DNA of 30,129 nt. Origin: Macrostomum lignano (taxonomy: Eukaryota). The notes under the pieces were generated by a model. It did no database searches and had not been told where the DNA came from. It was given only the letters and a program-made list of their open reading frames with translations. Position 1 is the stretch's first letter, and every line of letters starts with the position of its first letter. Below, piece by piece: positions 1 through 30,129 of the stretch. The DNA is taken from assembly GCA_002269645.1 (NCBI GenBank), contig NIVC01004958.1:1-30129 (forward strand). Reading direction: 5' to 3'. Position numbers and translations under genes: made by a program.

Positions 1-147
1 AATGTCGGCCGGCTGCGGCGGCCAGTGACGTTCATGCGGTTGACGGGGCAGCGGCTGCAACAAAAATTCAGCACTACAGTGCAGCTATTGCGGGCATAGT
101 GACCGGAAGTGAAGCACATGTAAAAAGACAGCCAAAATGAACGGACG

Positions 148-1783
148 CGAAAGGGAGGCCAAACAGAATGACTGGAAGTGAAAGAGAGGCCAGACAGAAT
201 CACAGGAAGTGAAAGGGAGGCCAGACAGAATGACCGGAAGTGAAAAGGAGACGATACAGAATGACCGGAAGTGAAAGGGAGGCCAGACAGAATGACCGGA
301 AGTGAAAAGGAGACCAGACAGAATGACCGGAAGTGAAAAGGAGACGATACAGAATGACCGGAAGTGAAAGGGAGGCCAGACAGAATGACAGAAGTGAAAG
401 GGAGGCCAGACAGAATGACCGGAAGTGAAAGGGAGACCAGACAGAATGACCGGAAGTGAAAAGGAGACGATACAGAATGACCGGAAGTGAAAGGAAGGCC
501 AGACGGAATGACTGGAAGTGAAAGGAGGCCAGACAGAATGACCGGAAGTGAAAGGGAGACCAGACAGAATGACCGGAAGTGAAAGGGAGGCCAGAAAGAA
601 TGACCAGAAGCGAAAGGGAAACAGAAATTATGACCAGAAGCGAAAGGGAGGCCAAACAGAATGACTGGAAGTGAAAGGGAGGCCAGACAAAATTACCGAA
701 GTGAAAGGGAGGCAGACAGACAGAATGACCAGAAGTGAAAGGGAGGCCAGACAGAATGACTGGAAGTGAAAGGGAGACCAGACAGAATTACCGGAAGTGA
801 AAGGGAGGCCAGACAGAATGACTGGAAGTGAAAGGGAGACCAGACAGAATTACCGGAAGTGAAAGGGAGGCCAGACAGAATGACTGGAAGTGAAAGGGAG
901 GCCAGACAGAATGACTGGAAGTGAAAGGGAGACCAGACAGAATTACCGGAAGTGAAAGGGAGGTCAGACAGAATGACTGGAAGTGAAAGGGAGGCCAGAC
1001 AGAATGACCGGAAGTGAAAAGGAGACGATACAGAATGACCGGAAGTGAAAGGGAGACCAGACAGAATGACCGGAAGTGAAAAGGAGACCAGACAGAATGA
1101 CCGGAAGTGAAAAGGAGACGATACAGAATGACCGGAAGTGAAAGGGAGGCCAGACAGAATGACAGAAGTGAAAGGGAGGCCAGACAGAATGACCGGAAGT
1201 GAAAGGGAGACCAGACAGAATGACCGGAAGTGAAAAGGAGACGATACAGAATGACCGGAAGTGAAAGGAAGGCCAGACGGAATGACTGGAAGTGAAAGGG
1301 AGGCCAGACAGAATGACCGGAAGTGAAAGGGAGACCAGACAGAATGACCGGAAGTGAAAGGGAGGCCAGAAAGAATGACCAGAAGCGAAAGGGAAACAGA
1401 AATTATGACCAGAAGCGAAAGGGAGGCCAAACAGAATGACTGGAAGTGAAAGGGAGGCCAGACAAAATTACCGAAGTGAAAGGAGGCCAGACAGAATGAC
1501 CAGAAGTGAAAGGGAGGCCAGACAGAATGACTGGAAGTGAAAGGGAGACCAGACAGAATTACCGGAAGTGAAAGGGAGGCCAGACAGAATGACTGGAAGT
1601 GAAAGGGAGACCAGACAGAATTACCGGAAGTGAAAGGGAGGCCAGACAGAATGACTGGAAGTGAAAGGGAGGCCAGACAGAATGACTGGAAGTGAAAGGG
1701 AGACCAGACAGAATTACCGGAAGTGAAAGGGAGGCCAGACAGAATGACTGGAAGTGAAAGGGAGACCAGACAGAATTACCGGA
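148..1783. repeat. 31-bp minisatellite (~53 units, consensus GAAGTGAAAGGGAGGCCAGACAGAATGACCG) with a ~775-bp higher-order duplication
   Basis: Units read directly. Rare variant units (GAAGCGAAAGGGAAACAG at 607 and 1382; AGACGG at ~504 and ~1278) recur about 775 bp apart. The array is cut mid-unit (CCGGA|) by LTR1. Confidence 0.97.
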
Positions 1784-2199
1784 TGATGTAACCACGCTCT
1801 GGTCGCGGGATAGGGCATGGGAACTTTTTCGAAAGTGCCTCCTATCCCGTGCACCCTCTGCACAGAGCTGTCGAGACTCGGCCAGGTCTCCGACCGGGCC
1901 TGGAGACTCCCGCTCTGCTGCACCCCTCCTGCTGCCTTGGTCCCGTCTCTCCTGCCGCCACACCTGCCTTTCCGGAGCCCCTACCCCTTTCTGTACCTCC
2001 CCCTCTACCCTATCTCTTCTGTTCCCGCCCTATTCTTCCTGTACTTTCTCTACCTCCTCCTTTTTTTGTCTCCCTCTGCACTCTTTTCCTGCGCTGTCCC
2101 CTCTTTCCCTGTGTCTACTTACAGTACTTTGTGTGCTCACCGTCTCCCCATCCCCTCTCAAACTCCCAAACGGTGACGCAAGTCGTGTGACCCCTTCTC

Positions 2200-2760
2200 C
2201 CCCTCGGTGACTCATCGATGACTCATCCCCCTCTCTTGCGCAACCTTTTCTCACGCTATTGTTCTCCTTCCCAAATTTCTCATGTGACACCCACCCCACC
2301 TCCGCTTCTATTGTTCTCGTTTTTGCTTCTTTTGTTCTCTCGACCCCCACCAATTATCACATTTTCTCCGATTTTCTCTTTCTTTTGTTCTCGTTTTCGC
2401 ACCTAATTATCACCTTTTCTCCAATGTTTACTTTTCCATTGTTCTCAGTTTTCCCCAATTATCCCCGATTTCCAATTCCTTTGTTCTCGACCCCAGCCCT
2501 ATTGTTCTCAATGTTTGCTTGCGCAACACTTTCGCGACCACCCGCTGCGCCAATTATCCCCCCACCCCACCTCCGGATTGCGCAATTTCCCGATTTCTCA
2601 TGTTGCTATGCCGGTCTCATGCTTCTCATCATGACTCATTCTGACGTCATTCTGCCGGCAGCCAATCAGAGAGAGGGAGCCATGGTAACGACCTTGAGGA
2701 GGCGGCTGTGAGGTCTATAAAAGGAAGCGATTTCGGCATGAGAATACTCAACTGAGTTTA
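2200..2760 (+). promoter_or_regulatory. LTR U3 enhancer/promoter (repeated in LTR2 and LTR3)
   Basis: TATAAAA 2716-2722 (11750-11756, 20807-20813), CCAAT 2662-2666, TGACGTCA 2642-2649, TGACTCA at 2208, 2219 and 2632, TTGCGCAA at 2236, 2519 and 2578. Function inferred from motif consensus only. Confidence 0.7.
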
Positions 2761-3050
2761 TCTCTGTTCCTCTCCTCGTCCTTCTTTGGACTTGCTGTCA
2801 GATTGAGTTCTGACCCATTCGTCTATAAGACGAATCCCTGCCGGTCCGCGGTCTGTTACCGCCAAGTTATCCTTAGCTCCCCAAGTGAGCTCGCCTATCG
2901 GCCAGCGGTCTGATACCGCCCAGCATCATCAGCATCGCCTGATCTACATCAGCGCCTCGTCGCTCCAGCGCATCGCCGCTTCACCGTCTGCCTGACTGCA
3001 GCCTACAGCCGCCCTCGGTCACTCCGCCTCTCTCTCTCTCTGTGCAGCTG

Positions 3051-3059
3051 CCGGTAAGT
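3051..3059 (+). promoter_or_regulatory. Candidate splice donor in the LTR (CCG|GTAAGT, GT at 3054)
   Basis: Consensus donor about 310 nt after the presumed TSS; candidate acceptors just upstream of gag (AG 6284-6285 or 6334-6335). Confidence 0.55.
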
Positions 3060-4003
3060 TCCTGCTACTAATTTGTGCTCTAATTGCCTTTGCTTATCCG
3101 GGGTTTGCCTATTTTCCATTGTCTGATTAGAGAGCTGAGCCAATTGTGATACCGTATCTTTTGCTGTATTTTACTCAATAGTGAAGCCGCCTAATTGCCT
3201 GCTTATTTGCCTAAGGGCCTAATTATTAACTATTAACTAACTTCATCATTATTCAATCTTTCACCATCATTTCACTCATGGCTTGCTAAGCCTTTCTCCC
3301 GGGGTGGCAAAGCATAAGGAAGTTTGGGTAAGCTAATGGCCTCTCCCCGTGCAAAGCCCGCCTGTGAGTGCGTGCTGCGGGGCCGCGTGTGCGTGCAGTA
3401 GAGGGATTAGCGAGTCTTGGCACAGAATGGCAGTAGGAAGGTTGCAACCCCATGCTAACGCGTCCCTTCGCCCTGAGCAATCTAAACTGTAGACAGTACA
3501 TGTTCGCCTCATACTACTCTTAGTAATCAAAGTCGCAAGTCAGCCTCGCTCACAGCCACAAAGGATCCCCTGCTGAGAAATCCTCCAGGATTGAGCCCAG
3601 AGTTCCCGATCATGCCCCAAGCAGAGTCCCTGTACTCGGCTGCATGCGTCTCCCCTGTTAGCCTAAATCCCCTGGTAACCAATCCAGGCGGGGCTCTAGC
3701 CTCGAGAGGTCTGGTAGAAAGATCCAGGTGCGCCAGGTCACATAGAGTGGTGGCAGCCACTCGGTCATACCATGACCGAGTGACCAACTATTGCACCTTG
3801 GCTACAGGTGGGGTCCATGTGGGTCCTTGGCCCTCTGGTCACGAAGCGCTACCAAAGCTACTAATCATGTGGGCGGGACAGTCTGGTGCTGGAGGTCCGT
3901 CAGGTCATTGCCCGGTCATAGGCAGCCTACGGTCATTGCCCCCTCTAGCCATGCGTTCGTCTCTCTACGGAGCGGACAGGCGACAAGGGCGGTTACATCA
4001 AAA

Positions 4004-4021
4004 TGGTGGCAGCGGTGGGAT
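4004..4021 (+). promoter_or_regulatory. Primer binding site, tRNA-Leu
   Basis: TGGTGGCAGCGGTGGGAT, 3 nt after the LTR, is the reverse complement of ATCCCACCGCTGCCACCA, the 3' 18 nt of metazoan tRNA-Leu(AAG/TAG) as recalled from human and Drosophila. Confidence 0.9.
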
Positions 4022-6350
4022 CTGGTGCAAACAGCGCTGAGTTTCGGACTGGTGGTTTAGATGTGACAAGCGCACCTGTGGCATCCCTCAGAATGGTGGC
4101 CGAAGCGCAAAGAGTGCCATGTCTAAATCTACCAATCGTAAAAATCGCCAATCGTCATTCTCTTCTCCCATGGCGTGAGGCAACAAAATCCAAAAATATT
4201 AATGTAACTTTTCAAATTTTTCGGGCTGCGAATTCGTTCAATTCATTCGAAATTTCCAAATTCATTCATTCGCCAAAAGCCCCTGATTCAATTTAAAATT
4301 AATTTAGCCGATCAGTTTCAGCGCTAGAAAGTGTGAAGTGGTAGACGAGCGGATTTGATTACAATCAGAATAGCTACCTGGTAACGGAGTGTGTGAAGAA
4401 CTGCGAAAGTGAATTTTCCGGACTCACTTTCTATTTCATGGTAATATGCTTTATTTCCCCTCCCTTTCTTTCTCTCGCCTAGCCTACAGCAGAACTGTGT
4501 GAGTGTTGAGGTGGACAGCCAGCCAGGTACGGAAGCCTCATCACGCAAGCACAGGGAAGCTGGAAGCGAAGCATTTCTTTCCTTTGTCCTACCTCTTTCT
4601 TTTACTCGGGGAGTGTAACAGTCGCTCTCCCTGATCGCTCAGTTAATCCTAGAAATGCGTAGAGACCGGAGCGTGTTTTGTTTGTCCATTAGAATGAACA
4701 GCTATCAAGGGCTATGGGGAACTCGCTATATATGCATAGTAAGGGAAGCAGTAGTCATGGCCTTGGAAACATTGGGGGATACCAAAGTCTCGCAGGAATG
4801 GGAATAGCGGTGTGATTGTATCTCTGTAGGGTATCAGTGTGACTCAAAAATCTCGGGCTAAAAAAAGTGTCACCTCCTATGGAATACCTGCGATCAGCCC
4901 GGACCTGAATTCTGCGGTAACCCCTGGTGCCTTCATGGCTGGGATTCGATCCCAACGTGTCTGCTGACTCTCCCCACTGTATTGCAGACCCGGTAGTAAC
5001 TGCTTTGGTTGCATTTGGGCTGGTGCAGTGGCTGGAAATAGTAGATCCCATAGTATCCTATTGATAGTGGAGTTCAGTGAGTATTGGAATGGTGTACTGG
5101 AAGTCTGGTGGCCCCCAGTGATCTCGTAATGTTTCCTGCTGCATTCTCCTCCTTTAGTAATTCCTCCCCCTGCTGTCAGTCTGATAGGGGAGGTGGGTGT
5201 GCCAATCAGCCCGACCCGGTAGAACGGCGCTCCTGCCCGACTTGTCAGCCTGGCCCAGGAAGGCGCTATTGCGCAACTCTTTTCCCCTCTGGCCACTGCA
5301 GCCCACTAAGCGCTTAGACGCAGGGTTGCATGCAGTCCCCTAATGTAAAGCCCCGGTACATAGAGTGCCACCCCAGTGCCCCGCAAGGTCAATAAGACGG
5401 GTTGACGTCTCTGGCAACTTGGAATAACCTAGATGGAGGTACCGCTGTCTCCTGGTAGAACCGGGCGTTCAAGTACAGTAAAGTGGAGAGGCTGACAACT
5501 GTAGGACTTTCTCCGCCATCAGATAAAGGTCCCAAGTATGCTATTTCGAGCTGCAGCAAAGGTGGAGTATCGGAGGGGCAAGCATTTCAGGAAGATACTC
5601 ACTTAGGTCTGTTTATCCTAGGAAAGCGGGCGAGAGTTTCAGGCTTGTAATCCGCCTAACCTGAAAACTTCGGGGACAGTTTAGTCTGGACTCCCGCTGC
5701 GCGCCTTCGCTCTGAACAGAAGGGGAGGTCTTGGTTTTTGTGGATTCTGCTAGACGTAGGGGAGCTGGATTCCCGCCTTTTGTGAAGCTGCGTGTACAAG
5801 ATTGGTAGTCCTGAGGTGGAAGCCCCACTGGACTCCGACGGTTTTCCGGCTGTGCAAGGGCAGTAAAGTGGGAGGACCTCCATGGGGATTGCTCCCGCCA
5901 CTTGGGTTTTTGGGTCCAGGCGCCAACGCTTCTTCGTAGTAGCTTTCTTAAGGAAATGGGGTCCGGCGCGCAACCCTAGGGGAGAATTTGTACAGGTGCC
6001 GTAAGTCCGTTTACGGTCGGCATTTGGGTTCCCTAGCATGGCCGCAAAATGAAGGTCAAGTCTCTCTGAATAGCCAATTTTTCCCTGTCAGGATGTGCCA
6101 TAGACAACTGGTAGTGGTAGCCGCAGTTTGAGTCAGTGTGCTTTGCCGAGTGAAGCCGTTAGGACTGCCTAAATGGAATTATGTGGAGCCACCCGTTTTT
6201 CAATTTGTTTTCTTCGACGCCGCAAGTGTGTGAGTTTTGTCTGTGTTTGTGTGTTTCGGATCAACTTTTCGGTCTTTACCTGTAGTTGCCCCGGTTTTCT
6301 TTTCTTTTCCTTCCCGGTGGTGGGTACTCCCCCAGCTATCCGGCATTCAC

Positions 6351-7796
6351 ATGTCACGGGCGCGTGGAGATAGGGTCGTAGAAGCTGTGTGCGCAGACGC
6401 CCCTGGTCAACCACCCTCGGCCGCTGACACCCCAGCAGTTGCCGCCCCCGCAGCCGCAATGGCCGCAGCCGCTGGTAACCAGGTCCCTCAGCCTCCAGAA
6501 GCAGTAGTAGTTGAGGAACCAGATGAAGGAGTAGCAGCTCCCGCTCCCAATCAGGGTGGCGCAGCAGCCGCCGCTGCTCCCCCGGACGCAGCCCAGAATC
6601 CTCCTCAGGCAGTCCCGCAGCTAGGAGACTTAGTTGCCGCTATAGCCAATGCGTTTAACCAGCTAAACATGGGCCAAGACGCCCAGAGGCCGAAAATCTA
6701 CGTAGAAAAGTTCTCTCCCGGCGAACACTGTTTTGTGCAATGGGTAGAGAGAATGATCTACAAGCTGGACGCGGAGAGAACTGTAGGAGATCAGGCTAGG
6801 AAGCAGGTGCTCATCTCGCACCTCCCAGGTGAATTTCAGAACTTAGCCTTAGGATTGGACGGGCAATTGCCCTTTGAGCAGTTCGTATCTAGATTAGGAG
6901 AGCAGTTGGGCGAGGCCAACACTGATCTGGCTAAGAGAAATAAGCTGAAGAATCTGAGCCAGAAACCCGGCCAATCACATAGTGCTTTTGCTGCTATGAT
7001 AAGATCTCAGATAACGGCCATGTTTCCTCAGATTCAGGGTGAGCAGAGAGAACAAGAAATCGTGTACACCTACTTGGAACACGCTAAGCTCCCCCGCCAG
7101 GTCAGACAAGATCTGTTGAGCCGTCGCTGGCAGACAATTGAGCAGGTGTTAGAACAGCAGCAAGCCCTGTTAGAAGCCGCAGACTTAGCCGGGAAATGGG
7201 ACAGTAGTGGCCCGCCCAGGTCTGAGTCCCGCACCGAAGTCCGTCTGCAACCTCAGCAGCCACCCAGGCCCCCTCGCAAGTGGGTCAGGATGGTGAACCA
7301 GGAAGCTGACGAGACGGAGGAGGACGGTGACGGCCTATCAGAGATGCAAGAGAGGTTGGGCGCGCTAGAGCAAACGCAAAAGGATCTGCGCAACCAGCTG
7401 GTGCAGCTCAATGAAACTATGAAGGCGACAGCAGAGTCTGTTGCCCAGCTGCCCCAGCAGATGAGGCCCCCTCGCCCCGCCACTCCCAACAGGAACTGGA
7501 GGCAGGGGCAGGGCGGCTCTAATAGCAGTAGGAACTGGCGCCAACCCCAGCCCCCGCCGCTTGCAATTCAGGAGGCGCCCACGCCGCCGGCGCCGGGTGT
7601 GCAGCAGCAGCAATTGCAGCTTCGTGCGCCACCTGATCGCCATAGGCAAGATTTAGAGGAGTGGGGCAGAGATATGTTAGACGAGGCTACCAGGGAGAGG
7701 CAGGAGAGGCTCGCCCAGCTGCGCGCGCAAGCTCTGATGCCTCCTCCTTCCACGCCTGAAGAGCCCCCGGGTTCGGGAAACCCGTGGGAGGGCTGA
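6351..7796 (+). CDS. gag: Ty3/gypsy-like Gag (capsid) protein, 481 aa
   Basis: Long ORF from ATG 6351: Ala/Pro-rich N-terminus, then a retrotransposon capsid-like segment (EKFSPGE..WVERM..RKQVLISHL..LSQKPGQSHSAFAAMIR..FP), a heptad-like segment and a Q/P-rich tail. No CCHC knuckle. Confidence 0.88.
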   Translation: MSRARGDRVVEAVCADAPGQPPSAADTPAVAAPAAAMAAAAGNQVPQPPEAVVVEEPDEGVAAPAPNQGGAAAAAAPPDAAQNPPQAVPQLGDLVAAIANAFNQLNMGQDAQRPKIYVEKFSPGEHCFVQWVERMIYKLDAERTVGDQARKQVLISHLPGEFQNLALGLDGQLPFEQFVSRLGEQLGEANTDLAKRNKLKNLSQKPGQSHSAFAAMIRSQITAMFPQIQGEQREQEIVYTYLEHAKLPRQVRQDLLSRRWQTIEQVLEQQQALLEAADLAGKWDSSGPPRSESRTEVRLQPQQPPRPPRKWVRMVNQEADETEEDGDGLSEMQERLGALEQTQKDLRNQLVQLNETMKATAESVAQLPQQMRPPRPATPNRNWRQGQGGSNSSRNWRQPQPPPLAIQEAPTPPAPGVQQQQLQLRAPPDRHRQDLEEWGRDMLDEATRERQERLAQLRAQALMPPPSTPEEPPGSGNPWEG

Positions 7797-7837
7797 ATGG
7801 CCCGGCCCGAACTCAGCCCCGTTCCCTCTCTAGGGCC
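7775..7837 (+). promoter_or_regulatory. -1 ribosomal frameshift signal: G GGA AAC plus downstream stem/pseudoknot candidate
   Basis: Heptamer 7775-7781 is X XXY YYZ in the gag frame, and the -1 frame is the protease ORF. After an 8-nt spacer, GGGCTGA 7790-7796 pairs with TCAGCCC 7813-7819. Same in copy 2 (16828-16834). Confidence 0.8.
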
Positions 7838-8299
7838 CAGCTTAACCTGCCACGTCCGCCCAGCAAGAAGTTTAGATTTGAGAAGGTACCCGATTTCTAT
7901 CAGCCAAGACCAGCTAGAGGACAACGCGGGAGAGATATTGTTGTAGAGTTGCCAATTGAGAATGTTCCCACCCGCCTCCTGGTAGATGGGGGCAGTGCGC
8001 TGTCTTTGCTAACAGTCAAAGACTTTACTAAAATTACCGGACAGAGTGTGGAGGCCCTGGAGCCCCCATGTGTGAAGGCCGTGTCCTACACGGGCAATGA
8101 ATTAGAGATGCTAGGCCAGGCCACCCTCACAGCAGTTATTGGGCTAGAAGAGGTGAGAATCCTCTTTCTGGTCGTTGGCAATTCAGCAGCAGTTTCCCTC
8201 CTGGGTAGTGCTTTTCTAGCCAGTACGCATGCTATCATAGACTATCGAACAGAAAAGGTTTACTTGCTAGGTGTGAGTCTCCCATTCGACCCCCGCTGA
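7775..8299 (+). CDS. Retroviral-type aspartic protease domain in the -1 frame (C-terminal part of a ~649-aa Gag-Pro fusion)
   Basis: IVVELPIENVPTRLLVDGGSALSLL ... AVSYTGNELEMLG ... LLGSAFL ... AIIDY matches the pepsin-like retrotransposon protease layout. Ends at a clean TGA with no RT downstream. Confidence 0.85.
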   Translation, partial: GKPVGGLNGPARTQPRSLSRAQLNLPRPPSKKFRFEKVPDFYQPRPARGQRGRDIVVELPIENVPTRLLVDGGSALSLLTVKDFTKITGQSVEALEPPCVKAVSYTGNELEMLGQATLTAVIGLEEVRILFLVVGNSAAVSLLGSAFLASTHAIIDYRTEKVYLLGVSLPFDPR

Positions 8300-8886
8300 G
8301 TAACAGATCGGTAGCTAGCCAGTGATTGCTTAATTCCCCCCCCCCGATTCGCGTGTCGAAATTTTGCTCGTGTTGCCCCGTTGGAGACCGCTTTTCGCGT
8401 ATTTACGTATGCCCTCTATTACTCGAATTTATGTTGTGACCTCGTGCTCGTTGGTGTTGTTTAAATATCTAAGATTTTAGCTCGAAAATTAGGCCCGTAC
8501 AGTATGCGTTAATTCCCTATCAGTAAATATTAACTTGGAAACTAGTAAAATTTCTATGGGTCTGCTCCACAGGAGGTCCTGCCCCGCTGTTTAAGATTTT
8601 CTGGGAACAATGGAAGTCTGGGACCGTAGGAAATTAGCACCTTTAGGTCTGATTTCGTGTGTTTGTTCACACTTTGTGAAAGTCCGATTTTGGGAAACTT
8701 TTAATTGGTTTCGATGAGGCAATAGGGGGGGCATTCAATGTAATTAAGTTTATCAGGCAAATGGGGCAGCAATTAGTTTAGAGTAGGCCAGTGGTTTAGT
8801 CAATGTAAAGTCAGGTAAGTAATTAAAGTCAAGTTATGGGGACAGATAGTTCAGAATTAGTAAGTAAGCATTAAGAACCACCAGCA

Positions 8887-9147
8887 TCAGCAGTTGGGAA
8901 GCCGCAGAAATAGCTCCAAGAGCAGTAGCCAGTGCATTGTGAGACCGGCTATTAGGGCCGTCGACAGCACGACCAAATGCCAGGAGCCGTCGGTCTCCAC
9001 CACAGGGGTTGGCAAGGGCTGTGGAGCGGCAGCCACGGGCGTCACCGCGGCGACCGGCGGCGGAGCGTGCGCTCGGGCTGACAACGGCGGTGGTACCGGA
9101 TGCCAACCGGCCCCGGACGCTGGTTCGCTGGCGGCCGGCGGTCGCAT
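8887..9147 (-). CDS. Candidate antisense microprotein (86 aa from ATG 9147), Pro/Ala-rich with a C-terminal hydrophobic segment; the exon begins at acceptor 9292
   Basis: GC-rich island between AT-rich flanks; acceptor CATTTTCAG| at 9293; context GGGCCATG; segment WHLVVLSTALIAGLTMHWLLLLELFL. Copy 2 differs by 1 nt near the ATG, so the start is uncertain. Confidence 0.45.
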   Translation of the reverse strand: MRPPAASEPASGAGWHPVPPPLSARAHAPPPVAAVTPVAAAPQPLPTPVVETDGSWHLVVLSTALIAGLTMHWLLLLELFLRLPNC

Positions 9148-9380
9148 GGCCCGGGAGCCGCGGCGCCTATGTCACCAGATGGCGCAGCCGGCCCAGAATC
9201 AGAGGGGGCGTCCGGCTCTGAATGGCTGTCTTCGGGCGCTTCGTAGTCGGACTCCTCTTCAAGGATGGGCTCGGCTACTAGCGGCCGGAATCCTGAAAAT
9301 GAGAATTTAAGGGATGAATAGAAGTAGGAACTAGCCGGGTATTAGGATGTAGATAGATGGGGATTTTAACTTTATGGCGT

Positions 9381-9750
9381 GTGGTAGTGGCCTTCTGGGG
9401 GTTTCTTCCTTTCTTCATTCCCTCTCCTTCCTTGAGCTCTAGGTGATCAAGTAGTGGTAGCCTTCTTCCCCGCCTTCTTTTAATGATACACCTCTAAGTG
9501 ATGGCAGTTTTTCGTCTTCCTCTCCTCTGGTAGAAGGGCAAATGGTGGCAGTTTCCCCGGCAATCCACTCTAATTGGTGACGGGTTCCCTCTTTCTCTTC
9601 CCTGTTAATGTACAATGGTGGCAGTTTTCCCTAGCAACCTCTCTCAAAATGGTGGCGATCCTCCTTTTCTTTTCTTTAGTAATGCGCCAAGGTGGTGGTA
9701 GGTTCCCCTTTCTCTTTTATAATAGTACATCAAACTGGTGGCAGTCAAAT
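9381..9750. repeat. Degenerate array of about nine 33-72-bp units, each a TGGTGGCAG-like core plus a pyrimidine tract
   Basis: Cores at about 9382, 9452, 9499, 9543, 9575, 9616, 9650, 9693 and 9736; the copy-2 equivalent is 18431-18805. Confidence 0.75.
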
Positions 9751-10099
9751 TAATGATTAATTCCTCTTTCAAACTCTTTCGGCTGTTAAGTTTTTGAGGG
9801 TTTCGGAGATGTGAATGAGGCCTGTGTGTGTTTTTCTGTGTGTGCCACTATTTTTAATTTCACTATTTTTCTAATAAAAACTTGTTTTTCTAATATGCCA
9901 CCTTTTACTAATAATATACGAGTCTTTGTTGTGCGTCAATCAAATTCATAAAAATAAGTCTGTGTTGGCCTCTCACTCTTAGTACCGTAAGAAAAGACAT
10001 ATTGTACTACTACAGTTGGCTCAGTTTAATATGAAAGGCATGGCAAGTGGGTGGATTTCGTTTAACGTATAGGCGAAAGGAAATCAGGTTGGTGATGGG

Positions 10100-10280
10100 A
10101 CTTACCGAGTAGTTGTATAGTTTGGAAAATCGCGCTGAGTGCCTTGGTTGGAAACTGCGACTCCGTGTAGGTTGCAGGCAGCCGGCTCCCGTTATCAGTG
10201 GCGCCTTTTATACAGTGGCCAGCGCACGGCGCGGCGCCTCCCAGCCTACAACCGATCGCCCCGAAGCCCTCTGACTGGCT
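10100..10280 (-). promoter_or_regulatory. Candidate antisense promoter and first exon: CCAAT-like box, TATAAAA, donor TCG|GTAAGT
   Basis: On the minus strand: AGCCAGTCAGAG (10280-10269, 11/12 identical to the LTR CCAAT context), TATAAAA 10212-10206, donor GT 10105-10104. Same order in copy 2 (TATA 19267-19261, GT 19160). Confidence 0.55.
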
Positions 10281-10800: not shown

Positions 10801-10817
10801 AAAAGGCAGTGGGGGTG
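10801..10817 (+). promoter_or_regulatory. Polypurine tract
   Basis: AAAAGGCAGTGGGGGTG directly abuts LTR2. Confidence 0.8.
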
Positions 10818-13034
10818 TGATGTAACCACGCTCTGGTCGCGGGATAGGGCATGGGAACTTTTTCGAAAGTGCCTCCTATCCCGTGCACCCTCTGCACAGA
10901 GCTGTCGAGACTCGGCCAGGTCTCCGACCGGGCCTGGAGACTCCCGCTCTGCTGCACCCCTCCTGCTGCCTTGGTCCCGTCTCTCCTGCCGCCACACCTG
11001 CCTTTCCGGAGCCCCTACCCCTTTCTGTACCTCCCCCTCTACCCTATCTCTTCTGTTCCCGCCCTATTCTTCCTGTACTTTCTCTACCTCCTCCCTTTTT
11101 TTGTCTCCCTCTGCACTCTTTTCCTGCGCTGTCCCCTCTTTCCCTGTGTCTACTTACAGTACTTTGTGTGCTCACCGTCTCCCCATCCCCTCTCAAACTC
11201 CCAAACGGTGACGCAAGTCGTGTGACCCCTTCTCCCCCTCGGTGACTCATCGATGACTCATCCCCCTCTCTTGCGCAACCTTTTCTCACGCTATTGTTCT
11301 CCTTCCCAAATTTCTCATGTGACACCCACCCCACCTCCGCTTCTATTGTTCTCGTTTTTGCTTCTTTTGTTCTCTCGACCCCCACCAATTATCACATTTT
11401 CTCCGATTTTCTCTTTCTTTTGTTCTCGTTTTCGCACCTAATTATCACCTTTTCTCCAATGTTTACTTTTCCATTGTTCTCAGTTTTCCCCAATTATCCC
11501 CGATTTCCAATTCCTTTGTTCTCGACCCCAGCCCTATTGTTCTCAATGTTTGCTTGCGCAACACTTTCGCGACCACCCGCTGCGCCAATTATCCCCCACC
11601 CCACCTCCGGATTGCGCAATTTCCCGATTTCTCATGTTGCTATGCCGGTCTCATGCTTCTCATCATGACTCATTCTGACGTCATTCTGCCGGCAGCCAAT
11701 CAGAGAGAGGGAGCCATGGTAACGACCTTGAGGAGGCGGCTGTGAGGTCTATAAAAGGAAGCGATTTCGGCATGAGAATACTCAACTGAGTTTATCTCTG
11801 TTCCTCTCCTCGTCCTTCTTTGGACTTGCTGTCAGATTGAGTTCTGACCCATTCGTCTATAAGACGAATCCCTGCCGGTCCGCGGTCTGTTACCGCCAAG
11901 TTATCCTTAGCTCCCCAAGTGAGCTCGCCTATCGGCCAGCGGTCTGATACCGCCCAGCATCATCAGCATCGCCTGATCTACATCAGCGCCTCGTCGCTCC
12001 AGCGCATCGCCGCTTCACCGTCTGCCTGACTGCAGCCTACAGCCGCCCTCGGTCACTCCGCCTCTCTCTCTCTCTGTGCAGCTGCCGGTAAGTTCCTGCT
12101 ACTAATTTGTGCTCTAATTGCCTTTGCTTATCCGGGGTTTGCCTATTTTCCATTGTCTGATTAGAGAGCTGAGCCAATTGTGATACCGTATCTTTTGCTG
12201 TATTTTACTCAATAGTGAAGCCGCCTAATTGCCTGCTTATTTGCCTAAGGGCCTAATTATTAACTATTAACTAACTTCATCATTATTCAATCTTTCACCA
12301 TCATTTCACTCATGGCTTGCTAAGCCTTTCTCCCGGGGTGGCAAAGCATAAGGAAGTTTGGGTAAGCTAATGGCCTCTCCCCGTGCAAAGCCCGCCTGTG
12401 AGTGCGTGCTGCGGGGCCGCGTGTGCGTGCAGTAGAGGGATTAGCGAGTCTTGGCACAGAATGGCAGTAGGAAGGTTGCAACCCCATGCTAACGCGTCCC
12501 TTCGCCCTGAGCAATCTAAACTGTAGACAGTACATGTTCGCCTCATACTACTCTTAGTAATCAAAGTCGCAAGTCAGCCTCGCTCACAGCCACAAAGGAT
12601 CCCCTGCTGAGAAATCCTCCAGGATTGAGCCCAGAGTTCCCGATCATGCCCCAAGCAGAGTCCCTGTACTCGGCTGCATGCGTCTCCCCTGTTAGCCTAA
12701 ATCCCCTGGTAACCAATCCAGGCGGGGCTCTAGCCTCGAGAGGTCTGGTAGAAAGATCCAGGTGCGCCAGGTCACATAGAGTGGTGGCAGCCACTCGGTC
12801 ATACCATGACCGAGTGACCAACTATTGCACCTTGGCTACAGGTGGGGTCCATGTGGGTCCTTGGCCCTCTGGTCACGAAGCGCTACCAAAGCTACTAATC
12901 ATGTGGGCGGGACAGTCTGGTGCTGGAGGTCCGTCAGGTCATTGCCCGGTCATAGGCAGCCTACGGTCATTGCCCCCTCTAGCCATGCGTTCGTCTCTCT
13001 ACGGAGCGGACAGGCGACAAGGGCGGTTACATCA
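10818..13034 (+). repeat. LTR2 (2217 bp), shared central LTR
   Basis: Same termini as LTR1; differs from LTR1 only by two homopolymer indels by eye; preceded by a PPT and followed by a PBS. Confidence 0.96.
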
Positions 13035-17935: not shown

Positions 17936-18342
17936 TCAGCAGTTGGGAAGCCGCAGAAATAGCTCCAAGAGCAGTAGCCAGTGCATTGTGAGACCGGCTA
18001 TTAGGGCCGTCGACAGCACGACCAAATGCCAGGAGCCGTCGGTCTCCACCACAGGGGTTGGCAAGGGCTGTGGAGCGGCAGCCACGGGCGTCACCGCGGC
18101 GACCGGCGGCGGAGCGTGCGCTCGGGCTGACAACGGCGGTGGTACCGGATGCCAACCGGCCCCGGACGCTGGTTCGCTGGCGGCCCGGCGGTCGCATGGC
18201 CCGGGAGCCGCGGCGCCTATGTCACCAGATGGCGCAGCCGGCCCAGAATCAGAGGGGGCGTCCGGCTCTGAATGGCTGTCTTCGGGCGCTTCGTAGTCGG
18301 ACTCCTCTTCAAGGATGGGCTCGGCTACTAGCGGCCGGAATC
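17936..18342 (-). CDS. Antisense exon, copy 2: continuous ~135-codon frame lacking ATG (FRPLVAEPILEEESDYEAPED...WHLVVLSTALIAGLTMHWLLLLELFLRLPNC)
   Basis: An extra C relative to copy 1 joins the acidic upstream frame to the hydrophobic-tail frame; acceptor AG at 18344-18343. Confidence 0.4.
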
Positions 18343-19855
18343 CTGAAAATGAGAATTTAAGGGATGAAATAGAAGTAGGGAACTAGCCGGGTATTAGGAT
18401 GTAGATAGATGGGGATTTTAACTTTATGGCGTGTGGTAGTGGCCTTCCTGGGGGTTTCTTCCTTTCTTCATTCCCTCTCCTTCCCTTGAGCTCTAGGTGA
18501 TCAAGTAGTGGTAGCCTTCTTCCCCGCCTTCTTTTAATGATACACCTCTAAGTGATGGCAGTTTTTCGTCTTCCTCTCCTCTGGTAGAAGGGCAAATGGT
18601 GGCAGTTTCCCCGGGCAATCCACTCTAATTGGTGACGGGTTCCCTCTTTCTCTTCCCTGTTAATGTACAATTGGTGGCAGTTTTCCCTAGCAACCTCTCT
18701 CAAAATGGTGGCTGATCCTCCTTTTCTTTTCTTTGGTAATGCGCCAAGGTGGTGGTAGGTTCCCCTTTCTCTTTTATAATAGTACATCAAACTGGTGGCA
18801 GTCAAATTAATGATTAATTCCTCTTTCAAACTCTTTCGGCTGTTAAGTTTTTGAGGGTTTCGGAGATGTGAATGAGGCCTGTGTGTGTTTCTGTGTGTGC
18901 CACTATTTTTAATTTCACTATTTTTCTAATAAAAACTTGTTTTTCTAATATGCCACCTTTTACTAATAATATACGAGTCTTTGTTGTGCGTCAATCAAAT
19001 TCATAAAAATAAGTCTGTGTTGGCCTCTCACTCTTAGTACCGTAAGAAAAGACATATTGTACTACTACAGTTGGCTCAGTTTAATATGAAAGGCATGGCA
19101 AGTGGGTGGATTTCGTTTAACGTATAGGCGAAAGGAAATCAGGTTGGTGATGGGACTTACCGAGTAGTTGTATAGTTTGGAAAATCGCGCTGAGTGCCTT
19201 GGTTGGAAACTGCGACTCCGTGTAGGTTGCAGGCAGCCGGCTCCCGTTATCAGTGGCGCCTTTTATACAGTGGCCAGCGCACGGCGCGGCGCCTCCCAGC
19301 CTACAACCGATCGCCCCGAAGCCCTCTGACTGGCTGAAGCGGGGTCCGAGCCTTCAAGGACGCTAGGCCTCCGTGCGGTTGAACTCCCGGCGAAATTAGC
19401 TTATTAATTTACTGCGCTGCATTAGTATTTTTCCCCTGTGTAATCGTCATTCTCCCCGAGGCTCTGCCCTTGGCTGTGTGCTAGCAACCCTTCCCCCCTT
19501 CTTTTTCCCCACTTCCCTCACCCTTCCCCGTTTCCTCTCTTTCCCAGCTGCGCTTCTATCCAATTATGATAATTTATTGTTGACAATTCGCTATTTTTCT
19601 CCCTACTATTGCGCTGTCTGTGTTTCCCCCCTCCCACTTTAGCCACAGCAACAGTTGAAATTTTTGAAATTCTGTATTGCACTCCAACCTATGTATCTCG
19701 TTTTGTGAATTTATTGCTATCCCCTCTATTTTATCGCCTTTTTCCATTCCCGCTCGCGGTTTGTTAATTCTGTGATTTCACGTTCGGTTGAGATCCCGCT
19801 CCCGTCTGTGTGGTTCCATGTTGGGCAGTGATGATGACGGAACCAGTTCCGTCAC

Positions 19856-19872: not shown

Positions 19873-22091
19873 TGATGTAACCACGCTCTGGTCGCGGGAT
19901 AGGGCATGGGAACTTTTTCGAAAGTGCCTCCTATCCCGTGCACCCTCTGCACAGAGCTGTCGAGACTCGGCCAGGTCTCCGACCGGGCCTGGAGACTCCC
20001 GCTCTGCTGCACCCCTCCTGCTGCCTTGGTCCCGTCTCTCCTGCCGCCACACCTGCCTTTCCGGAGCCCCTACCCCTTTCTGTACCTCCCCCTCTACCCT
20101 ATCTCTTCTGTTCCCGCCCTATTCTTCCTGTACTTTCTCTACCTCCTCCCTTTTTTTTGTCTCCCTCTGCACTCTTTTCCTGCGCTGTCCCCTCTTTCCC
20201 TGTGTCTACTTACAGTACTTTGTGTGCTCACCGTCTCCCCATCCCCTCTCAAACTCCCAAACGGTGACGCAAGTCGTGTGACCCCTTCTCCCCCTCGGTG
20301 ACTCATCGATGACTCATCCCCCTCTCTTGCGCAACCTTTTCTCACGCTATTGTTCTCCTTCCCAAATTTCTCATGTGACACCCACCCCACCTCCGCTTCT
20401 ATTGTTCTCGTTTTTGCTTCTTTTGTTCTCTCGACCCCCACCAATTATCACATTTTCTCCGATTTTCTCTTTCTTTTGTTCTCGTTTTCGCACCTAATTA
20501 TCACCTTTTCTCCAATGTTTACTTTTCCATTGTTCTCAGTTTTCCCCAATTATCCCCGATTTCCAATTCCTTTGTTCTCGACCCCAGCCCTATTGTTCTC
20601 AATGTTTGCTTGCGCAACACTTTCGCGACCACCCGCTGCGCCAATTATCCCCCCACCCCACCTCCGGATTGCGCAATTTCCCGATTTCTCATGTTGCTAT
20701 GCCGGTCTCATGCTTCTCATCATGACTCATTCTGACGTCATTCTGCCGGCAGCCAATCAGAGAGAGGGAGCCATGGTAACGACCTTGAGGAGGCGGCTGT
20801 GAGGTCTATAAAAGGAAGCGATTTCGGCATGAGAATACTCAACTGAGTTTATCTCTGTTCCTCTCCTCGTCCTTCTTTGGACTTGCTGTCAGATTGAGTT
20901 CTGACCCACTCGTCTATAAGACGAATCCCTGCCGGCCCGCGGTCTGTTACCGCCAAGTTATCCTTAGCTCCCCAAGTGAGCTCGCCTATCGGCCAGCGGT
21001 CTGATACCGCCCCGCATCATCAGCATCGCCTGATCTACATCAGCGCCTCGTCGCTCCAGCGCATCGCCGCTTCACCGTCTGCCTGACTGCAGCCTACAGC
21101 CGCCCTCGGTCACTCCGTCTCTCTCTCTCTCTCTGTGCAGCTGCCGGTAAGTTCCTGCTACTAATTTGTGCTCTAATTGCCTTTGCTTATCCGGGGTTTG
21201 CCTATTTTCCATTGTCTGATTAGAGAGCTGAGCCAATTGTGATACCGTATCTTTTGCTGTATTTTACTCAATAGTGAAGCCGCCTAATTGCCTGACTATT
21301 TGCCTAAGGGCCTAATTATTAACTATTAACTAACTTCATCATTATCAATCTTTCACCATCATTTCACTCATGGCTTGCTAAGCCTTTCTCCCGGGGTGGC
21401 AAAGCATAAGGAAGTTTGGGTAAGCTAATGGCCTCTCCCCGTGCAAAGCCCGCCTGTGAGGCGTGCTGCGGGGCCGCGTGTGCGTGCAGTAGAGGGATTA
21501 GCGAGTCTTGGCACAGCATGGCAGTAGGAAGGTTGCAACCCCATGCTAACGCGTCCCTTCGCCCTGAGCAATCTAAACTGTAGACAGTACATGTTCGCCT
21601 CATACTACTCTTAGTAATCAAAGTCGCAAGTCAGCCTCGCTCACAGCCACAAAGGATCCCCTGCTGAGAAATCCTCCAGGATTGAGCCCAGAGTTCCCGA
21701 TCATGCCCCAAGCAGAGTCCCTGTACTCGGCTGCATGCGTCTCCCCTGTTAGCCTAAATCCCCTGGTAACCAATCCAGGCGGGGCTCTAGCCTCGAGAGG
21801 TCTGGTAGAAAGATCCAGGTGCGCCAGGTCACATAGAGTGGTGGCAGCCACTCGGTCATACTATGACCGAGTGACCAACTATTGCACCTTGGCTACAGGT
21901 GGGGTCCATGTGGGTCCTTGGCCCTCTGGTCACGAAGCGCTACCAAAGCTACTAATCATGTGGGCGGGACAGTCTGGTGCTGGAGGTCCGTCAGGTCATT
22001 GCCCGGTCATAGGCAGCCTACGGTCATTGCCCCCTCTAGTCATGCGTTCGTCTCTCTACGGAGCGGACAGGCGACAAGGGCGGTTACATCA
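19873..22091 (+). repeat. LTR3 (2219 bp), terminal LTR
   Basis: Same termini; no PBS follows (flank CTATAAG); nine substitutions relative to LTR1/2, all 3' of 20908. Confidence 0.96.
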
Positions 22092-22795: not shown

Positions 22796-23029
22796 TTACC
22801 AAACTATAAATAAAGTCAATACCTAAGAAGCTAAGGAAAAAATCAAAGTCTGACCCTTTTAGAAATTTTATACTTTAATATACTACATTAATAAAAGTGT
22901 AAGAGGCTAAGTACTTTGTGCTTTTAAGGCTATTTATGTAGACTAATTAAAGGTAGCTCTATAGTATTTATGCATCTAAGTACTAATATTCTAATCATGC
23001 TTGGGGGCAACCTAGAAATTCACCTGGTT

Positions 23030-23135
23030 GTTTCTATTGGCAACACATACATGCAAGTCACTATTGGACAGAATAGTAATCACATGACTATTCTCAGCCA
23101 ATAGCAAATTACATGTGTGTGTTGCCAATAGAAAC
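23030..23135. repeat. Foldback palindrome (decayed MITE-like)
   Basis: GTTTCTATTGGCAACACATACATG (23030-23053) versus CATGTGTGTGTTGCCAATAGAAAC (23112-23135) is 23/24 inverted, with nested inner inverted motifs. No TSD identified. Confidence 0.75.
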
Positions 23136-24089
23136 GGCCAAGTGATTCCCAGTGTTGTGCATGTATGATTTTAAGTGTGCTAGTTTAAATATTTTTATTT
23201 GTTTAAGAAACAAATTTAAACAAACACAATAGCACTAGACTATTTTTGCTCAGTGCATATAAAAACTTGACTTTTAAGTGTTGGGTTTGTGTTTGTAGTT
23301 TTGCTTGGTAAGTTCATGCCACACTTGTCTCTTTCTTTCTCATTTACTTTGTGCATTCTTTCTATGCCTTTTGATATTCAGGTTTGTACTTGCACATTTG
23401 TGGATGCTTTTAGCCCTAAATATTATTGATTCAATATTTATATTGCACCTACCCTGCTATATGCTAATTATCAATAAAAAGGTTTGCCTATGGGCTATTG
23501 TTTCCTCACCTCTTTTTGCTTGCAATTATGACTTGACTTGTCAATTTGTGTGAGAAAATTGTAAGCATTTGCTACCATGACATCAGTGGTGACCAATGTG
23601 ATAAATTGCAGCATCAAAAATGACGGATACAAATTTTGCATCAACAATTAAAGGGGCTATCTAGTAATAAAATGGGATCATCAAGAGCTTTATGAAATAT
23701 CTATTTATGACTGCTTCTTGCCTCATCTTATAACATGTGAAATGGTAGAGTATTTCAAGCAAGGTAACCTTCAATTTTACATTCTCATTTGATAAAATTG
23801 CACAAAGGTGACTTGTTGCCATTGACACTTGTTGCTATTTCTAGATCTATGGCAGGAGCACTGCTTGGGTCTGCACTTAACTGAGAGCTTGGAAAAGTGT
23901 AGTCACCTAAATATACCCTTACTTTGTGATACTGACATATAATGATAATAAAAAGATTTTTTTTACTTTAAATTTTTAGCTCAAATGACTTTAACTTTAT
24001 TAATCAATTTTAATTGCTAAATTGGTTTATTTTAATTGTTTGTTTTATTTGTCATTGATTTTTAAACTTGTTGCTTACTTGCATTAAAC

Positions 24090-28640: not shown

Positions 28641-28883
28641 GAAGTGTCAGAAATTCTATCTAAGTGTCGGGAATTCTATGAAAGTGTCGGAAAGGCTATG
28701 GACGAGTCAGGAAGGTTATAGAAGTGTCAGAAAGGTTGCGGTAGTGTCAGGAAGGTTGTGAAAGTGTCAGGAAGGTTATAGAAGTGTCAGAAAAGTTATA
28801 GAAGTGTCAGGAAGGCATGGAGTAGAAAATTCAGGAAGGCATGCAGTAGTAGTGTCAGGAAGGATATAAAGTGTCAGGTAAGC
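28641..28883. repeat. ~20-bp minisatellite (about 12 units, GAAGTGTCAGGAAGGTTATA-like)
   Basis: Units fall in a 20-bp register from 28641 to 28820, then degenerate. Confidence 0.9.
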
Positions 28884-29650: not shown

Positions 29651-30129
29651 CCTGACACCTTCGTAGTGTCTTTCTGACACCCTCTCAGTATCTTCTCTGA
29701 CATCCTCTCAGTGTCTTCTCTGACACCTCTCAGTGTCTTCTCTGACACCCTCTCAGTGTCTTCTCTGACATCCTCTCAGTGTCTTCTCTGACATCCTCTC
29801 AGTGTCTTCTCTGACACCCTCTCAGTGTCTTCTCTGACATCCTCTCAGTGTCTTCTCTGACACCCTCTCAGTATCTTCTCTGACATCCTCTCAGTGTCTT
29901 CTCTGACACCCTCTCAGTGTCTTCTCTGACACCCTCTCAATGTCTTCTCTGACACCCTCTCAGTGCCTTCTCTGACACCCTCTCGGTGTCTTCTCTGACA
30001 CCCTCTCAGTGTCTTCTCTGACACCCTCTCAGTATCTTCTCTGACACCCTCTCAGTATCTTCTCTGACACCCTCTCAGTGTCTTCCCTGACACCCTCTCG
30101 GTGTCTTCTCTGACACCCTCTCAGTGCCT
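29651..30129. repeat. 23-bp minisatellite (about 21 units, CTGACACCCTCTCAGTGTCTTCT), running off the window
   Basis: Units read directly. Confidence 0.96.

What the first reader, a model, noticed from the sequence alone, without database searches (positions are those of the whole stretch)
8887..10280. Self-contained antisense spliced gene for a membrane-anchored microprotein in place of pol/env
In minus-strand order: CCAAT-like box, TATAAAA (10212), an ~75-nt first exon, donor GTAAGT (10105), an 813-nt intron with CTAAT branch (~9343) and TTTTCAG acceptor (9293), then a GC-rich exon. That exon encodes a Pro/Ala-rich peptide ending in a ~26-residue hydrophobic stretch, and a possible ATTAAA lies at ~8705-8700. 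Copy 1 gives an 86-aa ATG ORF. Copy 2 gives a longer ATG-less acidic-plus-hydrophobic frame that stays in phase with an open exon 1. A retroelement with its own antisense single-pass protein might use it for particle egress or cell-to-cell transfer, host modulation, or toxin/antidote-like maintenance. These roles are speculative.
Basis: partly seen in the sequence, partly recalled or inferred. Interest (0 to 1): 0.75.

Follow-up and report, generated by a model that had tools for sequence, protein, structure and literature searches.

The report
Split retrotransposon's antisense membrane-protein gene
A young flatworm retrotransposon that lacks its own copying enzymes carries a backwards-facing, spliced gene under protein-level selection, which likely makes a 215-residue protein predicted to be anchored in membranes by its tail and may help move the element's particles inside cells; the two copies in this window have lost the exon that likely supplies its start.

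Summary
The window holds two tandem copies of a Gag+protease, pol-less LTR element of Macrostomum lignano (species named by UniRef hits). The hydrophobic-tailed 134-codon frame is under purifying selection (dN/dS 0.20 and 0.33 against two diverged subfamilies; 0.56, not significant, against a third). Its acceptor is used in 1 of 4 probable RNA runs. The 86-aa ATG ORF is a 1-nt deletion form (3 of 30 copies), probably an assembly error. Twenty of 30 copies carry a ~1.9-kb segment that the window lacks (one only in part). It holds the donor actually seen spliced, an ATG-bearing middle exon, and an overlapping 449-aa sense gene. A partner element with the same LTRs encodes RT, RNase H and integrase but no detectable protease. 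A sister family repeats the whole layout, with a non-membrane antisense protein. The protein fails the FAST/sORF2 fusogen criteria; a membrane-tether or trafficking role is inferred, not shown.

The parts
1784..4000 (+). LTR 1 (2217 nt, 10-bp terminal inverted repeat)
   Evidence: LTR1 vs LTR2 0 substitutions and 2 gaps
4004..4021 (+). primer binding site (tRNA-Leu assignment recalled, not tested)
6234..7796 (+). gag frame (520 codons stop to stop; ATG near 6345)
   Evidence: no Pfam Gag hit; 27-28% identity to Gag regions of pol-bearing elements
7760..8299 (+). aspartic protease frame, -1 overlap with gag, DGG active-site variant
   Evidence: Pfam PF13975 E=0.021, below cut-off; 40% identity to the sister protease with DSG
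8700..8705 (-). candidate poly(A) hexamer of the antisense gene
   Evidence: kept in 4 of 4 lineages; use not shown, an X12 contig runs ~250 nt past it
8887..9292 (-). last coding exon, copy 1: acidic cluster, Pro/Ala linker, C-terminal hydrophobic stretch; broken by a 1-nt deletion near 9136
9293..9345 (-). branch site and splice acceptor
   Evidence: acceptor used in X12 contig 20, GT..AG joint
9828..9904 (.). junction where ~1.9 kb (middle exon, its donor, 449-aa sense gene and its promoter) is missing relative to the majority form
10100..10212 (-). TATA box, probable non-coding exon 1 and donor
   Evidence: donor ranks 1 of 157 GT sites; analogous donor in the sister family; no ATG; frame has a stop in C513; splicing seen in 0 of 4 runs
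10801..10817 (+). polypurine tract
10818..13034 (+). LTR 2, shared by both tandem units
17936..18342 (-). last coding exon, copy 2, intact 134-codon frame
19155..19267 (-). TATA, exon 1 and donor, copy 2
19873..22091 (+). LTR 3; the array has no target-site duplication, unlike single copies (4 bp)

Best explanation
The stretch is the selected, spliced last exon plus the likely promoter and leader exon of an antisense accessory gene in a Gag+protease LTR element, which in complete copies likely makes a 215-residue protein predicted to be tail-anchored and would tether or route the element's particles on cell membranes. Shown: the element type, the majority form with the extra 1.9 kb, the middle-to-last exon junction in one probable RNA run, selection on the frame, and a partner with the same LTRs that has RT/RNase H/integrase and no detectable protease. 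Inferred: the TATA at 10212 starts the RNA and exon 1 splices to the middle exon, whose first ATG starts translation. Inferred: about 185 disordered residues (Arg-rich start, acidic Ser/Tyr cluster, Pro/Ala linker) face the cytosol while residues ~186-211 span a membrane. Inferred, weakest (about 0.3 on its own): the acidic cluster recruits host trafficking adaptors, as herpesvirus Us9 does, and the basic end binds RNA or capsid. The two window copies lack the middle exon and probably make no such protein; they would replicate on proteins supplied by other copies.
For: Selection: dN/dS 0.20 vs C100 and 0.33 vs C616 (both P<1e-5), no indels in the frame, other same-strand frames 1.05-1.94. Invariant residues over four lineages: acidic block 11 of 14, tail 33 of 39, spacer 11 of 29; a far-diverged family keeps the tail motif. 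UniRef models of 207-224 aa use the same junction, and A0A1I8G6W2 is the 215-aa form. Splice ranks in L048 2200-6300: middle-exon acceptor 1 of 274 AG, donors 1 and 2 of 157 GT, ATG 4 nt after the acceptor and in phase. ATG, acceptor, open frame and donor are kept in C100 and C201. The sister family (45% Gag identity, no blastn match to L048) has the same top two donors, an ATG-bearing phase-1 middle exon 46 nt inside its sense ORF (49 nt here) and a selected last exon (dN/dS 0.17-0.18, P~1e-18). Hydrophobicity KD19 2.02 at residues 187-205, no N-terminal hydrophobic segment. Partner.
Against: The junction was seen in only 1 of 4 runs, all contigs, with RNA status a guess and strand unknown. 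Exon 1 splicing was seen in 0 of 4. C513 gives dN/dS 0.56, P=0.14. The middle exon shares wobble positions with the 449-aa sense ORF, so its conservation is partly automatic; the dual-coding test gave P=0.011 for C100 but P=0.31 for C201. The opposite-strand frame sharing wobble positions with the last exon also shows low dN/dS (0.29-0.52), though it has stops. The UniRef models are automatic annotations, possibly from the same data. Splice scores came from my own rough matrix. The tail is only moderately hydrophobic and holds His, Thr and Glu; no topology predictor was run. The sister family's antisense protein has no hydrophobic tail, so membrane anchoring is not essential to this gene slot. 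No protein, location or partner has been observed.
Confidence: 0.6

Rival explanations
1. Same gene and protein, but it goes to mitochondria (Arg-rich presequence-like start, moderately hydrophobic tail) and dampens host silencing, for example piRNA processing at the mitochondrial surface.
For: First 20 residues have 7 Arg, no acidic residue and hydrophobic moment 1.06; the tail has KD19 2.0 and a short, slightly basic end. That such tails favour mitochondria and that piRNA processing sits there is recalled knowledge.
Against: The N-terminal sequence is largely dictated by the overlapping sense ORF. No targeting predictor was run. The sister family's middle exon has no such Arg-rich start.
Confidence: 0.17
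2. The middle exon gets its 5' end by spliced-leader trans-splicing or from an LTR-initiated transcript; the reader's TATA and exon 1 are not used.
For: 0 of 4 runs show the exon-1 joint; the X12 contig runs unspliced from the LTR to the second donor. 30% of genes in this species are SL trans-spliced (PMC8629364, passages).
Against: The exon-1 donor is the best-scoring donor in both families. The TATA is intact in C100 and the partner. The X12 contig can be a merge of the sense 449-aa mRNA and the antisense RNA. The SL's terminal AUG would be out of frame at both acceptors. No SL-like loose end among the 9 of 24 shown.
Confidence: 0.1
3. The reader's two-exon form is functional in the short copies: exon 1 splices straight to the last exon and translation starts at a non-AUG codon, or at the 86-aa ATG.
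For: Exon 1 is open and in phase 1. At least 9 of 30 sampled copies lack the middle exon and single short copies have target-site duplications.
Against: No ATG; exon-1 changes are 4 synonymous and 4 non-synonymous vs C100, with an in-frame stop in C513. The 86-aa form is in 3 of 30 copies, on a site that is substitution-polymorphic in others, and its ATG is lost in C100. Junction not seen.
Confidence: 0.07
4. The protein is an Env substitute that fuses cells (FAST/sORF2-like) and passes particles between cells.
For: Small, single hydrophobic segment, in the env position; such proteins exist in insect LTR elements (bioRxiv 10.1101/2025.03.14.642691, passages).
Against: No MGxxxS/T start, no ~30-residue ectodomain before the membrane segment, no polybasic tail after it (1 Arg), length 215 vs 63-107 aa.
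Confidence: 0.04
5. Only the antisense RNA matters (transcriptional interference or double-stranded RNA); the frame is incidental.
For: The partner keeps TATA, exon 1 and donor without the coding exons. Antisense and sense units overlap.
Against: Codon-level selection in two of three comparisons and in the sister family; conservation falls right after the stop.
Confidence: 0.02

Closest known systems
Antisense additional ORFs of plant Ty3/gypsy elements (maize Grande gene23, rice RIRE2, Retand TRP28 ORFs)
   Same: Conserved antisense ORF between the coding region and the 3' LTR, with its own upstream promoter in Grande (PMC7264820 and PMC11963269, passages).
   Different: Those proteins are nuclear or predicted DNA-binding. 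The word 'intron' does not occur in either paper's main text. Here: an animal host, a spliced gene with a middle exon overlapping a second accessory gene on the other strand, a membrane tail, and no sequence match.
Split or semi-autonomous LTR families: maize Cinful/Zeon; wheat Sabrina_SA (Gag-Pro) with Wilma; Quinta with Cereba
   Same: Coding capacity divided between copies that share LTR signals (PMC8547701, passages); a Gag+protease-only element (PMC9744471, passages); a Gag-supplying partner (PMC11302176, passages).
   Different: All are plants. Wilma and Cereba are described as fully autonomous, and in Cinful/Zeon the split is Gag vs polyprotein. Here the split falls between protease and RT, the RT partner keeps a Gag-like region but no detectable protease, and the pattern recurs in a sister family.
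Drosophila MDG1-group sORF2 and reovirus FAST proteins
   Same: Small single-pass protein encoded by an Env-less LTR element.
   Different: sORF2 is on the multi-copy element transcript, has a ~30-aa ectodomain, often a myristoylation motif, and a polybasic tail; none is present here.
Bdelloid rotifer LTR ORF3s (transmembrane and GDSL esterase types); ZfL2-1 ORF1p esterase
   Same: Accessory ORFs of 210-230 aa with TM segments, and GDSL/SGNH-type ORFs, in invertebrate LTR elements (PMC5408684, passages). The 449-aa sense ORF's C-terminal domain weakly matches SGNH folds, including 4c1b (Z 5.6).
   Different: Those are described as third ORFs after pol, not as antisense nested genes. The 449-aa ORF has HDG where SGNH enzymes have GDS, and all Z values are under 8.
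Alphaherpesvirus Us9
   Same: Tail-anchored protein with an acidic cluster bearing Ser and Tyr that engages transport machinery (PMC3602541, passages).
   Different: No sequence match; analogy of layout only. One Tyr rather than two. The UniRef label 'US8A' is a source name with no Pfam support.
HTLV-1 HBZ (recalled) and C. elegans Cer1 CERV
   Same: Spliced accessory genes of retroelements; HBZ is antisense. CERV comes from a spliced mRNA (PMC10309623, abstract only).
   Different: Both are nuclear regulators without a membrane anchor; HBZ starts inside the 3' LTR, whereas the TATA here lies ~600 nt inside the element.

Membership tests
Ty3/gypsy LTR retrotransposon (non-autonomous half) | Paired LTRs, PBS, PPT, target-site duplication | tested here: met
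   4-bp duplications at single copies such as C100, C181, C2291, C4728; none at the window array or at C650, C2146
Ty3/gypsy LTR retrotransposon (non-autonomous half) | RT-RNase H-integrase order | tested here: met
   met in the LTR-sharing partner; the window element has no pol
Split (mutually dependent) LTR family | Complementary coding capacity with shared LTR, PBS and PPT | tested here: met
   LTR 99% shared; no protease motif; protease HMM at most 1 bit in 8 of 8 partner copies vs 9.7 bits in a control
Split (mutually dependent) LTR family | No fully autonomous copy with the same LTR | tested here: inconclusive
   none among the copies fetched; searches give lower bounds and LTR-bearing loci were not all inspected
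Split (mutually dependent) LTR family | Trans-complementation shown | not testable with these tools
   needs bench work
Antisense additional ORF (aORF-3R type) | Conserved antisense ORF upstream of the 3' LTR in most copies | tested here: met
Antisense additional ORF (aORF-3R type) | Transcribed antisense from its own promoter | tested here: inconclusive
   GT..AG joint on the antisense strand in 1 of 4 runs; start site not seen
Antisense additional ORF (aORF-3R type) | TRP28/PF04195 or other known domain | tested here: not met
   no Pfam hit
FAST/sORF2 fusogen | N-terminal MGxxxS/T motif (present in most) | tested here: not met
FAST/sORF2 fusogen | ~30-aa ectodomain before the membrane segment; 3 or more K/R within 15 aa after it | tested here: not met
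   segment at residues ~186-211, one Arg after it
Tail-anchored membrane protein | Single hydrophobic segment at the C-terminus and no signal peptide | tested here: met
   only windows starting at 186-194 exceed KD19 1.5; hydropathy only
Tail-anchored membrane protein | Membrane insertion with cytosolic N-terminus | not testable with these tools
   needs topology prediction or bench work
SGNH/GDSL hydrolase (449-aa sense ORF) | SGNH fold | tested here: inconclusive
   model pLDDT 61, pTM 0.63; many SGNH rows at Z 4.9-6.9, rmsd 2.8-4.6, none at Z 8 or more; Foldseek none at E<=0.001
SGNH/GDSL hydrolase (449-aa sense ORF) | Catalytic GDS serine motif | tested here: not met
   conserved motif is H-D-G in 5 of 6 rows and H-H-G in the sixth; its match to SGNH block I is my inference

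The most novel reading that the evidence does not exclude
A clade of flatworm Ty3/gypsy elements has become two-segment, virus-like genomes: one segment carries RT, RNase H and integrase, the other carries Gag, protease and a compact two-strand accessory cassette (a three-exon antisense gene interlocked with a sense gene of degenerate SGNH-like fold). In this family the antisense product is a tail-anchored adaptor that docks particles on membranes and gives Env-independent, non-FAST transport, possibly into stem or germ cells.
Probability: 0.2. Interest if true: 0.85.

Novelty: new variant of a known kind. Interest (0 to 1): 0.62.

Why it matters
Accessory genes of LTR elements are mostly of unknown function, and in the papers I read antisense ones and split families come mostly from plants. 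Here an animal element combines three things: a selected, spliced antisense gene with a membrane tail, a dual-strand overlap with a second novel gene, and dependence on a partner that lacks protease. The layout recurs in a sister family with 45% Gag identity. RT-based surveys would miss the Gag+protease half or class the partner as defective. The host has transgenesis and RNAi (recalled), so location and knockdown tests are feasible.

Tried and rejected
No RNA holder on record was listed; RNA status of laid runs is a guess. SL-AUG as the missing start at 9292: gives a 5-codon frame, rejected. Antisense protein: no Pfam hit, no Atlas hit, only 7 same-species hits in the 5.8-billion set. 449-aa ORF: no Pfam, Atlas, PHROGs, PDB sequence or word-index hits; the full HMMER scan gave 2 remote Logan proteins. 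First fold (4 sequences) unusable, pLDDT 40. Foldseek on the second model found nothing at E<=0.001. Rfam: 0 hits in L048. No heat-shock element in the LTR. The search for related loci could not run on alignment A4. Families sharing only the post-protease segment had no antisense hydrophobic-tail ORF, except C2918 and C2635 (17 loci screened). dN/dS against C2635 and C2918 was dropped because their 5' halves do not align. Earlier scan findings: none. Literature search for an SH2-type reading of the acidic tyrosine motif gave nothing useful, so that idea is left out.

Full report
What the window is. Positions 1784-22091 are LTR-internal-LTR-internal-LTR, with 2.2-kb LTRs, a PBS, a PPT, a gag frame and an overlapping protease frame, and no pol. 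The genome holds at least 40 copies of the exon region at 98-100% identity (40 scored of 59 candidates). Single copies mostly have 4-bp target-site duplications; the window array has none. The two internal units differ by 4 substitutions and 37 gap columns, a pattern typical of long-read error (my inference). UniRef hits at 100% identity name the host as Macrostomum lignano.

The observation. All quoted motifs are at the stated places except a true CCAAT box. An open 134-codon frame with a KD19>=2.0 stretch arose in 0 of 2000 shuffles. The 86-aa ORF does not hold up. Of 30 loci, 21 have no indel in the exon, 3 (including window copy 1) share a 1-nt deletion, 5 share another and 1 has a third. 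Both recurrent deletions fall on or next to sites where other copies differ by a substitution, which suggests consensus artefacts. No contig in the four laid runs showed either deletion, though contigs drop rare variants.

The frame is under selection. Against natural diverged copies dN/dS is 0.20 (C100) and 0.33 (C616), both P<1e-5, and 0.56 (C513, P=0.14). The other two same-strand frames give 1.05-1.94. There are no indels in the frame, and identity drops after the stop. The acidic block (11 of 14 invariant) and the tail (33 of 39) are the conserved parts; the spacer is not (11 of 29). A far-diverged family (C2918, C2635) keeps the tail motif.

The missing start. Twenty of 30 loci carry ~1.9 kb at window 9828-9904 (one only in part); 9 lack it and 1 is cut by a contig end. 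The outgroup C100 has it, and the window junction reads as a deletion from a C100-like lineage. I laid four runs on a majority copy (L048). These are contigs of runs only guessed to be RNA. ATG, acceptor and donor persist in C100 and C201. UniRef models start at that ATG and use that junction, but they are automatic. The simplest reading is three exons: non-coding exon 1 (no ATG; 4 synonymous and 4 non-synonymous changes; a stop in C513), an ATG-bearing middle exon, and the last exon. The first junction is inferred, not seen.

The overlap. The extra segment also encodes a 449-aa sense ORF with its own TATA, dN/dS 0.09-0.10. The middle exon lies on its opposite strand with shared wobble positions, so part of its conservation is automatic; a direct dual-coding test gave P=0.011 (C100) and P=0.31 (C201). 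The ORF has two remote Logan relatives and no family hit. A moderate model (pLDDT 61) weakly matches SGNH folds in its C-terminal domain (Z up to 6.9, none at 8), without the GDS motif. This is a lead only.

The partner. Nine copies share the LTR (99%), the leader, the first ~70 gag codons and the 3' 830 nt including exon 1, but encode one 1553-aa frame with RT, RNase H and integrase. It has no D[ST]G or DGG motif. A small protease HMM scored at most 1 bit in 8 of 8 partner copies from both families, against 9.7 bits in an autonomous control, so the test is only modestly sensitive. I did not exclude a fully autonomous copy with this LTR.

The sister family. Elements with 45% Gag identity and no blastn match to L048 repeat the layout: Gag+protease, a sense ORF 21-25% identical to the 449-aa one, the same two top donors, an 89-nt ATG-bearing phase-1 middle exon, and a selected antisense last exon (dN/dS 0.17-0.18). 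Its last-exon acceptor ranks only third after the second donor. Their LTR-sharing pol partners also lack a protease motif. Their antisense protein has no hydrophobic tail. So the gene slot is old, and the membrane anchor is particular to this family.

How it likely works. The 215-aa product has an Arg-rich start, an acidic Ser/Tyr cluster, a Pro/Ala linker and one hydrophobic segment ending about 4 residues from the C-terminus: a tail-anchor layout. It fails the FAST/sORF2 criteria. The nearest layout analogy is herpesvirus Us9, whose acidic cluster engages a kinesin (PMC3602541). I therefore favour a membrane tether or trafficking adaptor for the element's particles (about 0.3 by itself), with mitochondrial anti-silencing next. 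The window copies probably make none of it.

Literature seen. Passages: PMC7264820, PMC11963269, PMC8547701, PMC9744471, PMC11302176, PMC5408684, PMC3602541, PMC8629364, bioRxiv 10.1101/2025.03.14.642691, PMC5730564 (not used for any claim). bioRxiv 10.1101/2024.12.18.629116: first third plus a term search, in which 'antisense', 'ORF' and 'non-autonomous' occur 0 times; its supplements, which list 455 lineages, were not seen and may include the partner. Abstract only: PMC10309623. HBZ and tail-anchor targeting rules are recalled. Searches listed no paper describing this gene or this split system; the library lacks most subscription journals.

Verdict. Observation partly confirmed, interpretation partly supported. 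New variant of known kinds, interest 0.62.

Noticed in passing
window ~8225-8675: Non-coding segment just after the protease stop, shared at 72-80% with several otherwise different repeat families; only 3 of 64 predicted pairs show a two-sided change. A possible cis element or an inserted repeat.
   Followed up: partly
L036:77-1426 (-); absent from the window at 9828-9904: 449-aa sense accessory ORF under strong purifying selection, with weak SGNH-like fold matches and relatives in the sister family and two Logan clusters.
   Followed up: partly
L083:4872-9530 (-): LTR-sharing partner, 1553-aa frame with a Gag-like region, RT, RNase H and integrase but no detectable protease; keeps the antisense TATA, exon 1 and donor.
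   Followed up: partly
L156:6276-6884 (+); L160; L162: Sister two-part family; its antisense protein has Arg-Gly repeats and no membrane tail. Its pol partners keep a ~40-codon remnant of the sense accessory ORF.
   Followed up: partly
L008, L012, L026, L028, L069: Several independent deletions remove all or part of the 449-aa gene, so loss of this segment recurs.
   Followed up: partly
window 129-1783, 28641-28863, 29652-30126: The array sits against a 31-bp satellite (53 copies); 20-bp and 23-bp tandem repeats lie at the other end. Other copies are also inserted in simple repeats.
   Followed up: no
window 23020-23145: 48-nt inverted repeat, 83% complementary, 30-nt spacer.
   Followed up: no
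window 4001-6344: Unusually long (~2.3 kb) leader between PBS and gag, 99% shared with the partner; no ORF with a Pfam hit among the two tested.
   Followed up: no
L048 1-2200 (LTR): LTR depth far exceeds internal depth in all four runs; X12 has no cover over gag-protease; one run has a joint from L048's end back to its start, which may reflect tandem copies or circles.
   Followed up: no
L081:8218-9930 (+): An unrelated autonomous element (C1104) has a 571-codon extra ORF between pol and its 3' LTR that begins with a DnaJ-like motif (label recalled, not tested).
   Followed up: no
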